Source: a virus (taxonomy: Duplodnaviria > Heunggongvirae > Uroviricota > Caudoviricetes). From it: a stretch of 5,039 nt of DNA. Location of the stretch: IMG/VR virus record IMGVR_UViG_2695420685_000008, one strand, 5' to 3'. Numbering within the stretch: position 1 is the stretch's first letter; each line of letters begins with the position of its first letter. A model generated the notes under the pieces. That model was not told where the DNA came from and did not search any database. It saw nothing but the letters and a program-made list of their open reading frames with translations. Of this stretch, positions 765 through 3,700 are shown piece after piece. The position numbers were made by a program, and so were the translations under genes.

Positions 765-3700
765 TACCACAACCCCATTCTTACACGTAATTTATTATTG
801 TTATCGTAGATCTGAATAAGGTTATTACTGATAACCATCTTACCTGTGCCACCAGATCCATTAATATAGAAAGTACCTGATTTATTTATCTGCCATCCTG
901 TAGAGTTGGCAACATAGTTAGTACTTTGTATCGTGGCACCAATTTTCGCATTGGTAATTTCACCATCGATAATTTTTGCTGCATTAATACTGGCATTGGC
1001 AATTTTCGCATTTGTGATCGCTGCATCTGCGATGTAACCAGTACCGATACTTGCCGCCTGAATCATGGATGTTTTGATGTAGGTAGTACCATTCACGATT
1101 GAGAATGGAGCCGTACCGCCTACTGTCGCCGCACTACTGCCGCTGACAATAAATTTATCTGCTGCGAAATAGATAGCACTGTTGTTACTCGTTCCCTGAG
1201 AAGCAACAAGACGGATACCCGCTACAGTACCGTTAGCATTGACGGACAATGAGTACTGGCTGTCTACAGTGCTTGCAGTTGCCTTTGTACTCATCTGCTG
1301 GTTAACCGTGGCAATCTGCCCGTTCACATCACTACGTAGCTGTGTAACTGCCTGTGATTGTGCTGTGTCATTATCCGCTACAGTCTGATTTAGATTTGTT
1401 ATGCTTGCCGTGTTTCCGTCTACCGTGTTTTTCAATGTAGAGATTTGCGTATTGGTGTATTCATTACTTTCATTAACTGCATTTTCAATTGTCTCATTCA
1501 GACGATCATCGAGATCAAGTATTCCATTAATCTGTTCTGCATCATCTTCCGTAAACTGGTATTTGCTGTTAATGCTGACCGTCTGCTCTGCCGAGTACTG
1601 AATATTGTCCTGTCCAAATACATCAAAGAATCCGACCTTAACTTTATATTCTCCATCTGGAATGTTGGGTATACTGTCAAATTCAGGTTTATTACTGGTG
1701 TAGAGTTTAGTACTCGTACCATTAACAATACTCACTACTGCCCCGGCATAATCCCTCTCAGTCGATGGAGTCCATGAGGCGAATAAGTTGCTAAACCCGC
1801 CAGTGAACTGAACACCCTGCACTAATCCACATTGTTTATTCTCAACGGTAATTCGTACTTCCTGTGAATAAGTACCATTGTTGAATCCCTGAGCAATAAT
1901 GCCAATAGTAGGTTTACGCACTCTGAGTCGGTTCATTTCAAGCGTAAAGTTGAATGTATTGCTCTGCGTATAGAATGTATCGATTAAATCACTACCGTTA
2001 TAGATATTAATGGTGTAGTACTTGAAGTAATCAGAAAATGAGCGACCATTAACGATTAAATTCTTCTGATTATCCCAACGGATATTGAAATCAGCAGAAT
2101 CAGTTTCATATTGCCCCACGGTGCGATTTGCCAGTACGACACCAGTTACGGAAGGTAATGCAAAGTTATATGTCGGCACTAATCCCGTTAACGTTAGTCT
2201 GTTACTCGTAAGGCCGAGATTGTTATATGCCTCAACCCCAAAGTCATAAGCCGCAGTGTCTGAGAGGCCGAATAGTTCAAAGTCGGTTTTCTGGGTATTA
2301 GTACTTCCCGCATACGTCCAAGTACCGGAACTACTCAACTTATAGTAGATGTAATAACCCCGTAGCCACGGATCTTGTGACGCATCCCATGTGAGATCGA
2401 CAAGGGAGCCGTTTGTTGTGTTACCTTTGCGTACTGCCTGTAGGTTCGTGGGAGCCTTTACGCTTAGTTCGGGAAACTGGATTGAACCGCCAGGTGACCA
2501 GATACCGGGATCTACGCCATCGTACATTGCATCAGGGGCTTCAACTGCCGTGATTGTAACGTACCCAACGTTCTCCTGATCGGTTGCCACTTCTTTTGAC
2601 AGTACCTTAAACTTCCCTGAAATATTCAGTTCAGTATTGCTGACGTTGATCGCATCCCATACCTTCAGATCCCAGCCTTCACTTGTGGTGAAGGATACAA
2701 TACGTAAGGCGTACTTAGCCTTGAGTACATCAACATTGACCATCTTCGCCAGTACATCAGCGTCATAGCACCAAGAGTAATCACGGCTTAGGGTAATAAC
2801 CTGCCCGTCACGCTGAATTGCCTCATCAATCGTAATATCGGAAGGAATGCGTAACACGTCAGTCGTGTACATACTGGCTGGATTGGTGTACTTCGCATCA
2901 ACAGTATTGAAGTAGTCTGTGCCGCCGCTGGTACTGATCTGTACTGCACCAAACATGTTATTTTCATTGAATGATGCAACCGAAAGCGTTTTACGATCCG
3001 TCGTAATACAGATTTGCCCTGCATGTACATACATAATACCGCCAAATACCTGACAGATATTTTCAATGTTTTCCTTGTACGAGCTTTGATAGCTAATTGA
3101 ACCATTAGCGTAATACTCCATCTGGTCACAATACGCTGCGGTTTCAAGGAAGGTATCGAGATTAATTAATCCCGGTTCAATTCCCATCCCGTACGTTGTA
3201 TTGGTCAGATAGTCGTAGATAATTGATGGTGGATTTGACGTCGCCAGTACTGACCCTGTTACGAGGTCTAATATTCTCTGACCTTTCATTTCAACAGTCA
3301 TCGTGAACTGATCATTCACAAGAAGATTCTGCTCTAATGATTGTTGTGTTTTTTTAATAACCGCACTGACAGAAACAATGCCTTTACCAAGAAACTTATT
3401 TGTCCACTTCGGCCCGGCGTATTGGCTTGCAAGAGATTTAGTACTGGTATAATCGCCACCAAACCGTACTTCAAGTTGTAGATATTCCTGATACTTACTG
3501 GCAATATTCGCCTTTGGTACAATACCATCCTGAGTGACCGGAACGGCTAATACTGGTTCATTATCAATATAAATCTGGTTTATATTCTTTTCAGTTCCCG
3601 CGTAGCATATTGCCTGTTCACTGAATAAGTACTGTGAATCACTGTTTGGGATGTTATACCATGAGACAATACTCCCCGTGAGAATAAACGAACCGCCCGA

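What the first reader, a model, noticed from the sequence alone, without database searches (positions are those of the whole stretch)
767..1180. J ends shortly after the conserved tip region: no lambda-type C-terminal receptor-binding domain
Similarity to lambda J reaches aa ~975, after which lambda has well over 100 further residues forming its LamB-binding domain. Here only about 90 residues remain: the (A/I)TNAKI repeats, [40 protein letters not shown], and the terminal motif shared with the downstream ORFs. Just upstream (aa ~805-900, nt ~1268..1555) lies an Asn/Thr/Gln-rich, probably helical stalk-like segment. Receptor recognition is therefore likely carried by a separate protein encoded downstream, by a different small C-terminal fold, or by lateral fibres.
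Basis: partly seen in the sequence, partly recalled or inferred. Interest (0 to 1): 0.45.

Follow-up and report, generated by a model that had tools for sequence, protein, structure and literature searches.

The report
Tail fibre with separately encoded receptor binder
The phage tail-tip fibre gene here really does lack the built-in receptor-binding domain of phage lambda, because, as in phage T1 and its relatives, that job most likely falls to two small proteins encoded right after it; this is a known arrangement, and in this window it is broken by insertion sequences.

Summary
The J-like protein (764..3967, minus strand, 1067 aa) has the Phage_Tail_Tip domain PF09327 but not lambda's receptor-binding domain PF12421. 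It stops 21 aa after the PF09327 match; lambda J continues for 160 aa.

The ITNAKI repeats and the GWQINKSG block belong to the conserved fibre. They are shared with relatives that do carry a fused, lambda-style C-terminal domain. Only the last ~35 aa (nt 767-868) are specific to this type.

The same ending occurs in T1 gp33, Pseudomonas phage DEV gp56 and SU10 gp16. Two translationally coupled genes follow: ORF2 (99 aa) and ORF3 (215 aa when intact, DUF8377).
- ORF2 is linked through shared PHROG families to DEV gp55, the adaptor.
- ORF3 is 38-40% identical, full length, to the equivalent proteins of YncD-dependent phages IsaakIselin and IME347.

The best reading is a split tip: a J trimer used as a dock, plus an adaptor and a separate receptor-binding protein. 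This is a new member of a known kind. Here IS100 cuts ORF3 and IS5 cuts the upstream tail gene, so the module is a remnant.

The parts
764..3967 (-). J-like central tail fibre / tip attachment protein, 1067 aa, intact
   Evidence: ORF list. Pfam: Phage-tail_3, fn3, PF09327. PDB sequence hits to T1 gp33, DEV gp56 and SU10 gp16. An identical protein is present in at least 24 contigs.
1268..1555 (-). Asn/Thr/Gln-rich stalk, aa 805-900, probably a helical coiled coil
   Evidence: 38.5% N+T+Q against 22.6% for the whole protein, with a hydrophobic periodicity peak at 3.6 residues. It aligns to T1 gp33 918-1016 and DEV gp56 190-280. The AlphaFold3 model in the T1 paper predicts an alpha/beta-helix fold for the T1 gp33 C-terminal part, residues 821-1172 (PMC11945409).
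869..1039 (-). ITNAKI-type repeats plus the [20 protein letters not shown] block, aa 977-1033: the conserved distal fibre shaft, shared with relatives that have a fused receptor-binding domain
   Evidence: PF09327 match at aa 992-1046. The block is shared with P0186 and P0255, and '[27 protein letters not shown]' is identical in P0255. The repeat occurs in 19,142 representative proteins.
767..868 (-). Terminal cap, aa 1034-1067 ([34 protein letters not shown]): the part specific to fibres that lack a fused receptor-binding domain, and the proposed dock for ORF2/ORF3
   Evidence: Relatives with a fused domain diverge here. Among listed representatives whose match reaches the profile end, 18 of 19 end within 4 aa of their own C-terminus. 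The same ending is found in HK639, IsaakIselin, T1 and DEV fibres. The model predicts strands at aa 1043-1046, 1050-1054 and 1060-1065.
465..764 (-). ORF2, 99 aa from the ATG at 764 (the tool lists a GTG start at 770): putative adaptor of the fibre tip
   Evidence: TAATG overlap with the J stop. Called as a 99-aa gene in the intact prophage. Hits phrog_7961 and phrog_2427, both shared with DEV gp55. 43% identical to HK639 gp24 and 37% to IsaakIselin bas10_0026. The N-terminal 25 aa are the most conserved part.
125..456 (-). ORF3, first 110 codons of a 215-aa DUF8377 (PF28254) protein: putative receptor-binding protein, cut by IS100
1..124 (.). End of an IS100 (IS21-family) element that truncates ORF3
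   Evidence: 100% megablast matches to IS100kyp ends in phage and prophage records; junction located.
3952..4368 (-). DUF6950 protein (134-138 aa), upstream tail-tip gene that overlaps the J start
   Evidence: Pfam PF22262, E=1.5e-10; phrog_2134.
4353..4928 (-). Tail protein (phrog_2048), 207 aa when intact; its first 16 codons are lost to IS5
   Evidence: phrog_2048. Nucleotides 49-624 of the intact gene are present, with the first shared base at window 4928.
4929..5039 (.). End of an IS5 element
   Evidence: 98-100% megablast matches to IS5 in P1, phage 434 and others.

Best explanation
The J-like protein is a 'split-type' central tail fibre. Its trimeric shaft consists of a helical stalk, a beta-rich segment, ITNAKI repeats and the GWQINKSG block. 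It ends in a ~35-residue beta-hairpin cap instead of a fused receptor-binding domain.

Receptor recognition is delegated to the two genes that follow in the same operon and are translationally coupled to J. ORF2 (99 aa) is the counterpart of the DEV gp55 adaptor. ORF3 (215 aa, DUF8377) is the counterpart of the DEV gp54 / T1 gp31 / Oekolampad receptor-binding protein.

By analogy with the DEV complex, one ORF2 and one ORF3 would sit on the tip of the J trimer, held mainly through their conserved N-terminal hairpins and the mid-protein hairpin of ORF3. ORF3 would contact an outer-membrane protein. The family's typed members (IsaakIselin, IME347) need the TonB-dependent transporter YncD, so YncD or a similar transporter is the tentative target.

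Shown here: absence of the lambda domain; the breakpoint against relatives with a fused domain; gene order and coupling; family links; the structural resemblance of ORF3 to a solved receptor-binding protein. Inferred: physical assembly at the tip, stoichiometry, and receptor identity.

In this window the module cannot work. IS100 removes the C-terminal half of ORF3 and IS5 removes the start of the upstream tail gene.
For: - No PF12421, and J ends 21 aa after the PF09327 match, whereas lambda J has PF12421 at 1001-1132.
- Close relatives P0186 (64% identical) and P0255 diverge at aa ~1033-1044 into lambda-like C-terminal domains of 110-170 aa.
- The terminal cap is almost always the true protein end: 18 of 19 representatives.
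- The last ~240 aa align to T1 gp33, DEV gp56 and SU10 gp16, right up to their C-termini.
- The same gene triplet, fibre then ~100 aa then ~220 aa, occurs in DEV, T1, HK639 and the intact prophage. In IsaakIselin and IME347 the pair is present but convergent to J.
- TAATG overlap and a Shine-Dalgarno sequence, with no terminator between the genes.
- PHROG links: ORF2 and gp55 share phrog_2427 and phrog_7961; bas10_0026 hits gp55's own phrog_4047; T1 gp31 hits gp54's phrog_3370.
- The J C-terminal model matches only SU10 gp16 significantly, then lambda, T5 and DT57C fibre shafts and VgrG.
- Literature: DEV gp54 is the receptor-binding protein by suppressor genetics, and gp56-gp55-gp54 is modelled as one complex (PMC12892993). 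Receptor-binding loci next to gpJ track receptor specificity (PMC8594841; bioRxiv 10.64898/2026.04.02.716166). A spike end without a receptor-binding domain, followed by an Ig-like and a hand-like protein, has been described (PMC12309495).
- ORF3 is 38-40% identical at 100% coverage to the IsaakIselin and IME347 proteins. Both phages depend on YncD.
Against: - No experimental structure resolves this C-terminal cap in any homologue. T1 is disordered there; DEV rests on an 8.5 A map plus AlphaFold3; SU10 on an AF2 model.
- ORF3 and DEV gp54 show no significant direct sequence similarity (hhalign probability 1.8%).
- ORF2 against gp55 aligns only over the N-terminal 26 residues by hhalign (probability 40%).
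- The SU10 authors call the equivalent fibre end a receptor-binding domain.
- No cor/Rtp45-like exclusion lipoprotein lies next to the module in the intact prophage.
- The YncD prediction rests on 38-40% identity only, and the closer relatives (HK639 group) have no typed receptor.
Confidence: 0.75

Rival explanations
1. The short C-terminal cap of J is itself the receptor-binding element, a small needle-like tip. ORF2 and ORF3 are then assembly chaperones or non-virion accessory or membrane proteins.
For: The SU10 study interprets the homologous end of gp16 as a receptor-binding domain resembling the T4 gp37 tip. T1 gp32 and gp31 are annotated as 'outer membrane protein' and 'membrane associated protein'. 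A genome-data preprint finds the GpJ C-terminal tip to be a feature associated with specificity.
Against: - The cap is highly conserved across phages of different hosts: RVRMGLW in E. coli prophages, HK639 and IsaakIselin. That is unexpected for a receptor-contact surface.
- The J C-terminal model matches only fibre shafts.
- There are no HxH metal-binding motifs of the gp37 type in the last 170 aa (sequence).
- DEV gp54 is a virion protein, and suppressor mutations map to it.
- Calculated membrane affinity of the hand-like proteins is low (PMC12309495).
- The preprint itself reads the tip association as compatibility between GpJ and the separately encoded receptor-binding protein.
Confidence: 0.1
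2. ORF2, not ORF3, is the receptor binder. A homotrimer of the ~100-aa Ig-like protein caps the J trimer as a detached version of lambda's Ig-like domain. ORF3 is then an alternative cap or an accessory protein.
For: Matusiak et al. report that the ~100-aa proteins are structurally similar to lambda's C-terminal Ig domain and can be modelled as trimers on the spike. ORF2 lies directly after J with overlapping stop and start codons. Relatives with a fused domain carry about 110-170 extra residues at the same point.
Against: - In the same study AlphaFold2-Multimer consistently preferred the hand-like protein as the terminus.
- In DEV the suppressor mutations fall in gp54, none in gp55, and one gp55 plus one gp54 are modelled per trimer.
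- The ORF2 family shows no profile similarity to the lambda receptor-binding domain (hhalign P=0.53).
- ORF3, not ORF2, resembles a solved receptor-binding protein.
Confidence: 0.1
3. Host recognition is determined mainly by side fibres, and the J tip only triggers DNA ejection after contacting a generic envelope component.
For: The intact prophage encodes a 917-aa tail-fibre protein with a weak Peptidase_S74 (chaperone-like) C-terminal match. In T1-like and T5-like phages the lateral fibres bind O-antigen as the first, reversible receptor (PMC8594841).
Against: In all characterised relatives the terminal, irreversible receptor is read by the tip module, not by the side fibres. The two functions are sequential, so this option adds to the main explanation rather than replacing it.
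Confidence: 0.05

Closest known systems
Pseudomonas phage DEV (Litunavirus) gp56-gp55-gp54 'receptor-binding fibre' (PMC12892993; PDB 9ZE4)
   Same: The fibre ends with the same PF09327 distal part and terminal hairpin: J 824-1065 aligns to gp56 190-425 of 429. It is followed by a 99-aa and a ~220-aa gene with overlapping stop and start codons. ORF2 and gp55 share PHROG families.
   Different: DEV is a podovirus. gp56 is only 429 aa and lacks the tail-hub part. gp54 and ORF3 belong to different sequence families. The DEV receptor is Pseudomonas LptD.
Receptor-binding loci next to gpJ in Drexlerviridae and related small siphoviruses, YncD type: IsaakIselin/Bas10 and IME347 (PMC8594841; PMC6499177; bioRxiv 10.64898/2026.04.02.716166)
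   Same: Same two protein families: ORF2 is 37% and ORF3 38-40% identical, full length (phrog_7961 and phrog_4524). The J tail is nearly the same, LRVRMGLF.
   Different: In those lytic phages the pair is transcribed convergently to J and is followed by a small signal-peptide protein. Here the genes are co-oriented with J, no such protein follows, and the element is a temperate prophage.
Phage T1 gp33 (J) with gp32/gp31 and Cor (PMC11945409; PDB 9L9P)
   Same: Same C-terminal architecture and ending. The 101-aa and 229-aa genes follow directly. gp31 links to the DEV gp54 family.
   Different: The receptor is FhuA. gp32 and gp31 belong to other PHROG families (phrog_557, phrog_425). A cor exclusion gene is present.
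Lambda gpJ (PDB 8XCJ/8XCI; PMC11101478)
   Same: Shares the hub-forming N-terminal part (weak BLAST match), fn3-type domains and the PF09327 central straight fibre.
   Different: Lambda continues with a beta-helical linker ('AEKIVGDIV') and the 132-aa Ig-like LamB-binding domain PF12421. The window protein stops before this.
Oekolampad (Bas18) and Rtp44 receptor-binding proteins bound to LptDE (PDB 9RPT; bioRxiv 10.1101/2025.07.07.663478)
   Different: It is a single protein of about 310 aa rather than 99 + 215 aa. Identity is 10%. The receptor is LptD. It is accompanied by an exclusion lipoprotein (Rtp45).
'Knife-like spike end + Ig-like protein + hand-like protein' scheme of Matusiak et al. 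2025 (PMC12309495)
   Same: Describes the same situation: a central spike without a receptor-binding domain, followed by a ~100-aa and a ~23-kDa beta protein, with the latter predicted to contact all three spike chains.
   Different: That work is purely computational, on three other phages. It leaves open which of the two small proteins caps the spike.

Membership tests
Lambda-type gpJ with fused receptor-binding domain | C-terminal Ig-like domain PF12421 (Ig_GpJ_C) | tested here: not met
   No PF12421 hit in the window protein at E<=0.1. Lambda J gives 4.5e-74.
Lambda-type gpJ with fused receptor-binding domain | Beta-helical linker with the 'EKI(V/Q)GD(I/V)' motif and at least 110 further residues after the GW..K.G block | tested here: not met
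   Only about 35 aa follow this block in the window protein. P0186, P0255 and lambda J have the linker and the extra domain.
Lambda-type gpJ with fused receptor-binding domain | PF09327 central straight-fibre domain | tested here: met
   E=3e-21, aa 992-1046 matching profile positions 80-134.
Split J-like fibre with a separately encoded receptor-binding module (T1 / Drexlerviridae / DEV type) | Fibre ends directly after PF09327 with the conserved terminal hairpin (..h-x-h-[YFR]-D-x-x-[GN]-x-L-R-V-x-h-G) | tested here: met
   Aligned to the very C-termini of T1 gp33, DEV gp56 and SU10 gp16 and of the HK639 and IsaakIselin J proteins.
Split J-like fibre with a separately encoded receptor-binding module (T1 / Drexlerviridae / DEV type) | A ~100-aa and a ~220-aa gene adjacent to the fibre gene | tested here: met
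   ORF2 is 99 aa and ORF3 215 aa, with a TAATG overlap and a Shine-Dalgarno sequence. Same layout in T1, DEV and HK639.
Split J-like fibre with a separately encoded receptor-binding module (T1 / Drexlerviridae / DEV type) | The small protein is homologous to the adaptor (DEV gp55 type) | tested here: met
   ORF2 hits phrog_2427 (7.6e-11) and phrog_7961. gp55 hits phrog_2427 (3.5e-5) and phrog_7961 (7.7e-4). bas10_0026 hits gp55's own phrog_4047 (1.5e-5). Direct hhalign covers only the N-terminal 26 aa, probability 40%.
Split J-like fibre with a separately encoded receptor-binding module (T1 / Drexlerviridae / DEV type) | The larger protein is related to a proven receptor-binding protein | tested here: inconclusive
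Split J-like fibre with a separately encoded receptor-binding module (T1 / Drexlerviridae / DEV type) | The two proteins are physically attached to the fibre tip in the virion | not testable with these tools
   No multimer prediction was available and no virion data exist for this prophage.
Split J-like fibre with a separately encoded receptor-binding module (T1 / Drexlerviridae / DEV type) | Neighbouring superinfection-exclusion lipoprotein (Cor, Rtp45); frequent but not obligatory | tested here: not met
   The next genes in the intact prophage are a 90-aa coiled-coil protein (weak holin and spanin-type PHROG hits) and a lysozyme.
YncD-associated protein family of the gpJ-adjacent locus (criterion of bioRxiv 10.64898/2026.04.02.716166: >30% identity, >99% coverage) | More than 30% identity over more than 99% of the length to the locus protein of a YncD-dependent phage | tested here: met
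   ORF3 against IsaakIselin is 38.2% and against IME347 40.4%, at 100% coverage. Both share phrog_4524.
YncD-associated protein family of the gpJ-adjacent locus (criterion of bioRxiv 10.64898/2026.04.02.716166: >30% identity, >99% coverage) | Infection depends on YncD | not testable with these tools
   This needs plating of the induced intact prophage on a yncD mutant.

The most novel reading that the evidence does not exclude
The receptor-binding tip may be a pseudo-threefold cap built by imitating the J tip.

A short beta-hairpin, G-h-x-h-[WYF]-[DN]-x-x-G-x-h-x-h, occurs once at the N-terminus of the ~100-aa protein. It occurs twice in the ~220-aa protein, at the N-terminus and near residue 105-118. 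That makes three copies about 100 residues apart. By eye, three copies are also seen in the single-chain ~310-aa Rtp44-type proteins (99 + 215 = 314). The hairpin resembles the hairpin that ends each J chain.

The three hairpins would stack on the three terminal hairpins of the J trimer. That would resolve the mismatch between a three-fold fibre and a single receptor binder. The segment ORF3 67-113 would then be a diverged copy of J 1025-1060, implying that these binding proteins arose from duplicated fibre-tip modules.

Support is modest:
- hhalign gives P between 2e-4 and 1.4e-2 for hairpin-to-hairpin alignments, always in register.
- hhalign gives P=4.2e-4 for the J tail against ORF3.
- PHROG cross-hits: gp54 114-141 to the T1 gp32 family, and HK639 gp25 102-177 to phrog_2427.
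- A held-out motif HMM was significant only for DEV gp55.
Probability: 0.3. Interest if true: 0.55.

Novelty: new member of a known kind. Interest (0 to 1): 0.3.

Why it matters
For annotation: this J-like protein should not be read as the host-specificity determinant on its own. The 99-aa gene after it is missing from the RefSeq annotation of strain 14EC007, and the 215-aa DUF8377 gene is labelled 'hypothetical'. Together they are the likely receptor-reading parts.

For host-range prediction and engineering: the breakpoint at aa ~1033, flanked by a repeat block that is identical in an otherwise 39%-identical relative, marks where tip modules are exchanged between fused and split designs.

DUF8377 gains a tentative function, and a link between the YncD-type and LptD-type binding proteins is suggested at the level of fold.

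The finding itself would not surprise a specialist. The split design has been described since 2021 and was dissected in 2025-2026.

Tried and rejected
- BLASTP of window J against lambda J found only a weak N-terminal match (E=0.026) and nothing at the C-terminus. The comparison had to go through Pfam profiles instead.
- PDB sequence searches with ORF2 and ORF3 gave nothing meaningful.
- hhalign of the ORF3 family against DEV gp54 gave probability 1.8%. Direct homology of the two larger proteins is therefore not claimed.
- hhalign of the ORF2 family against the lambda receptor-binding domain gave P=0.53. The published 'Ig-like, lambda-like' description of the ~100-aa proteins could not be confirmed by sequence.
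- A simple hairpin HMM tested on held-out proteins was significant only for DEV gp55. The T1, Rtp44 and J tails were at noise level. The 'shared motif' is therefore reported as weak.
- The word-indexed homologue search with the last 170 aa of J returned only fragments of close relatives.
- The exhaustive representative search was dominated by giant proteins with many ITNAKI-type repeats. It could be used only for the 'ends at the C-terminus' count and for finding the fused-domain relatives.
- The window has no match in the plasmid collection. Apart from its IS ends it has no near-identical match in the phage collection.
- An intramolecular chaperone or autoproteolytic C-terminal end was considered and rejected: there is no Peptidase_S74 hit in J.
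Full report
**What is in the window**

All long genes lie on the minus strand:
- a tail protein at 4353..4943;
- a DUF6950 protein at 3952..4368;
- a 1067-aa J-like protein at 764..3967;
- ORF2 at 465..770;
- ORF3 at 109..456.

The two ends of the window are insertion sequences. Bases 1-124 are 100% identical to IS100 ends, and about 4925-5039 are 98-100% identical to IS5.

Among 5426 complete E. coli genomes only strain 14EC007 carries this DNA. It is 100% identical over window 125-4662, lies between mipA and yeaG, and is there interrupted by IS3 copies.

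A look-up by exact protein sequence found the same J protein on at least 24 contigs. Several of these hold an apparently intact prophage next to mipA. Its gene order is: capsid, a 917-aa fibre protein, major tail protein, chaperones, tape measure, distal tail protein, a 207-aa tail protein, DUF6950, J, a 99-aa gene, a 215-aa gene (PF28254 = DUF8377), a 90-aa gene, lysozyme.

Against that reference, ORF3 in the window is identical for 332 nt and then runs into IS100 at base 124. The 207-aa tail gene lacks its first 48 nt because of IS5. The window is therefore a prophage remnant with an intact J gene.

**Checking the observation**

All quoted peptide strings are present at the stated coordinates.

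Pfam places Phage-tail_3 at aa 294-445, fn3 at 505-586 and PF09327 (Phage_Tail_Tip) at 992-1046, matching profile positions 80-134 of 139. Lambda J has PF09327 at 845-972 followed by PF12421, 'C-terminal receptor binding domain', at 1001-1132. The window protein has no PF12421 and ends 21 residues after the PF09327 match. Lambda J has 160 more residues. The core claim is correct.

The ITNAKI repeats and [19 protein letters not shown] correspond to the distal half of PF09327. In lambda the equivalent is ...[27 protein letters not shown].

Two relatives found by the exhaustive profile search make the breakpoint explicit.
- P0186 (1202 aa) is 64% identical to the window protein over aa 11-1031. 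It then continues with ...TSFIGDIV... and about 120 further residues.
- P0255 (1148 aa) is 39% identical over aa 9-1044. It contains an identical [27 protein letters not shown] block and continues with ...YAEKIQGDVTK... plus about 110 residues.
- Lambda has ...RAEKIVGDIVK... at the same place.

So fused and split versions of the same fibre exist, and they part at aa ~1033-1044. Only the last ~35 residues (nt 767-868) are particular to the version seen here.

Among the listed representatives whose match reaches the end of the profile, 18 of 19 end within four residues of their own C-terminus. This cap is a true terminus.

The stalk at aa 805-900 is enriched in N, T and Q (38.5% against 22.6% overall). 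It shows a single hydrophobic periodicity peak at 3.6 residues, which fits a helical coiled coil.

**What the C-terminus resembles**

A sequence search of the PDB with the whole protein aligns aa 824-1065 to three proteins:
- T1 gp33, residues 918-1166 of 1172;
- DEV gp56, residues 190-425 of 429;
- SU10 gp16, residues 109-322 of 322.

All three end with the same hairpin (...SVRDASGRLRVQIG, ...KVFDQAGKLRVHIG).

None of these C-termini is experimentally resolved. In T1 it is too flexible and was only modelled. In DEV it rests on an 8.5 A map plus AlphaFold3. In SU10 it is an AlphaFold2 model.

An AlphaFold2 monomer model of the last 170 aa (pLDDT 76, pTM 0.50) matches only SU10 gp16 significantly in the PDB. 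The next, non-significant, hits are the lambda gpJ fibre, T5 pb4, the DT57C straight fibre and VgrG spikes. It looks like a fibre shaft, not a globular binding domain.

**The two genes downstream**

The ATG of ORF2 overlaps the J stop codon (TGG TAA TGG read as ..W stop / ATG..). ORF3 starts 8 nt after the ORF2 stop, behind TAAGGA. No terminator lies between the genes. The true ORF2 is thus 99 aa, as called in the intact prophage.

tblastn against phage genomes finds both proteins together:
- directly after the J gene of HK639 and several temperate coliphages (43% and 47% identity);
- next to the J gene of Drexlerviridae such as IsaakIselin (Bas10), IME347, NBD2 and Henu7 (30-40% identity, full length).

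IsaakIselin and IME347 both need YncD (PMC8594841). [quoted passage not shown] ORF3 meets that criterion for the YncD family.

The same layout, fibre then ~100 aa then ~220 aa, is found in two further phages.
- T1: gp33, gp32 (101 aa), gp31 (229 aa), then cor.
- DEV: gp56, gp55 (99 aa), gp54 (223 aa), with overlapping stop and start codons.

For DEV, all three genes are essential. Suppressors of an lptD receptor mutation map to gp54. One gp55 and one gp54 are modelled on the tip of the gp56 trimer.

PHROG profiles link the families:
- ORF2 and gp55 both hit phrog_2427 and phrog_7961;
- bas10_0026 hits gp55's own phrog_4047;
- T1 gp31 hits gp54's phrog_3370.

ORF3 and gp54 are not detectably similar in sequence.

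A 2025 computational paper describes the same scheme for three other phages. In it the spike ends in a 'knife-like' fold without a receptor-binding domain. A ~100-aa Ig-like protein and a ~23-kDa 'hand-like' protein follow. The hand-like protein is predicted to touch all three spike chains.

**Most likely mechanism**

The J trimer is a structural fibre, and its ~35-residue cap is a docking site. ORF2 acts as adaptor. ORF3 is the receptor-binding protein for an outer-membrane protein, tentatively YncD or a similar TonB-dependent transporter.

Within each small-protein family the N-terminal ~25 residues are the best conserved part. In ORF3 a second conserved block lies at aa 100-125. This is expected if these segments contact the conserved J cap while the rest varies with the receptor.

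Assembly, stoichiometry and receptor identity are inferred, not shown. The 917-aa fibre protein of the intact prophage probably supplies a first, reversible contact, as in T1-like and T5-like phages. In this window the module is inactive because ORF3 is cut in half.

**The shared motif**

Profile-profile comparisons always pick out hairpin-to-hairpin alignments, in register:

| Comparison | P | Columns |
|---|---|---|
| ORF2 family vs ORF3 family (whole) | 8.8e-4 | 17 |
| ORF2 family vs N-terminal half of ORF3 | 2e-4 | 16 |
| ORF2 family vs second half of ORF3 | 1.8e-3 | 11 |
| Two halves of ORF3 | 0.014 | 11 |
| J tail vs ORF2 family | 2.6e-3 | 15 |
| J tail vs ORF3 family | 4.2e-4 | 36 |

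The last alignment pairs J 1025-1060 with ORF3 67-113.

PHROG cross-hits point the same way. gp54 114-141 matches the T1 gp32 family, and HK639 gp25 102-177 matches phrog_2427.

By eye the same hairpin sits at the N-terminus of T1 gp32, at the N-terminus and near aa 112 of T1 gp31, and at three places about 100 residues apart in Rtp44. However, a simple motif HMM tested on held-out proteins was significant only for DEV gp55.

I therefore treat the motif as real but weakly supported. The pseudo-threefold 'tip mimicry' idea is a hypothesis for multimer modelling, not a result.

**Verdict**

The feature is a new member of a known kind: the split J fibre with a separately encoded adaptor and receptor-binding protein. 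Here it sits in a temperate E. coli prophage and is crippled by IS100 and IS5. It is useful for annotation and host-range prediction, but of modest interest to specialists.

Noticed in passing
window 1-124 and 4929-5039: The window is bounded by an IS100 (IS21-family) end and an IS5 end. IS100 cuts ORF3 after codon 110, inside its second conserved hairpin. IS5 removes the first 16 codons of the 207-aa tail gene. Strain 14EC007 has the same DNA with IS3 copies instead, so the prophage has decayed independently in different strains.
   Followed up: yes
window 3802-3967 (J aa 1-55): The J protein starts with a ~55-residue Gly/Ala-rich hydrophobic stretch ([54 protein letters not shown]) that looks like one or two membrane-type helices. 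Relatives P0186 and P0255 have it as well. Lambda J does not start this way. No separate lambda I-like or K-like gene is present; a DUF6950 gene precedes J instead.
   Followed up: no
window 938-1039 (J aa 977-1010): The ITNAKI-type repeat is very widespread. A profile of the J C-terminus finds 19,142 representative proteins at E<=0.001. These include giant proteins of 2000-4700 aa with 20-48 matched stretches.
   Followed up: partly
window 938-1021 (J aa 983-1010): The 27-residue block [27 protein letters not shown] is identical in P0255, a protein otherwise only 39% identical, just before the point where the two proteins diverge. This suggests a recombination joint for exchanging tip modules.
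   Followed up: partly
window 465-764; L001 12333-12639: The 99-aa ORF2 is not annotated in the RefSeq record of strain 14EC007 (a gap between CR535_RS11480 and RS11475). It is missing from the gene calls of three of the eight contigs shown (L008, L009, L012), although its homologues are conserved in many phages.
   Followed up: yes
L007 1535-4288: The intact prophage encodes a 917-aa tail-fibre protein between the head genes and the major tail gene. It hits phrog_1980 and has a weak Peptidase_S74 match at the C-terminal end. Its first 150 aa match a 'major tail protein' PHROG (phrog_158). It is probably a side fibre.
   Followed up: partly
L007 7770-8399 (minus strand): A 209-aa DUF6216 gene sits on the opposite strand between the tape-measure and distal-tail-protein genes. 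It looks like a moron inserted into the tail operon.
   Followed up: no
L015 6753-7688 (Rtp44) compared with window ORF2 + ORF3: The single-chain LptD-type binding proteins (Rtp44 is 311 aa, the Oekolampad protein 309 aa) have almost exactly the summed length of ORF2 + ORF3 (99 + 215). By eye Rtp44 carries three G-I-x-h-x-[DN] hairpins about 100 residues apart. These proteins may be fused versions of the two-protein module.
   Followed up: partly
L003 5729-6061; L005 5726-6064: In the YncD-dependent phages IsaakIselin and IME347 the two-gene module is followed by a ~110-aa protein with a signal peptide (phrog_25729). It is a candidate superinfection-exclusion factor. The prophage studied here has no counterpart.
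   Followed up: no
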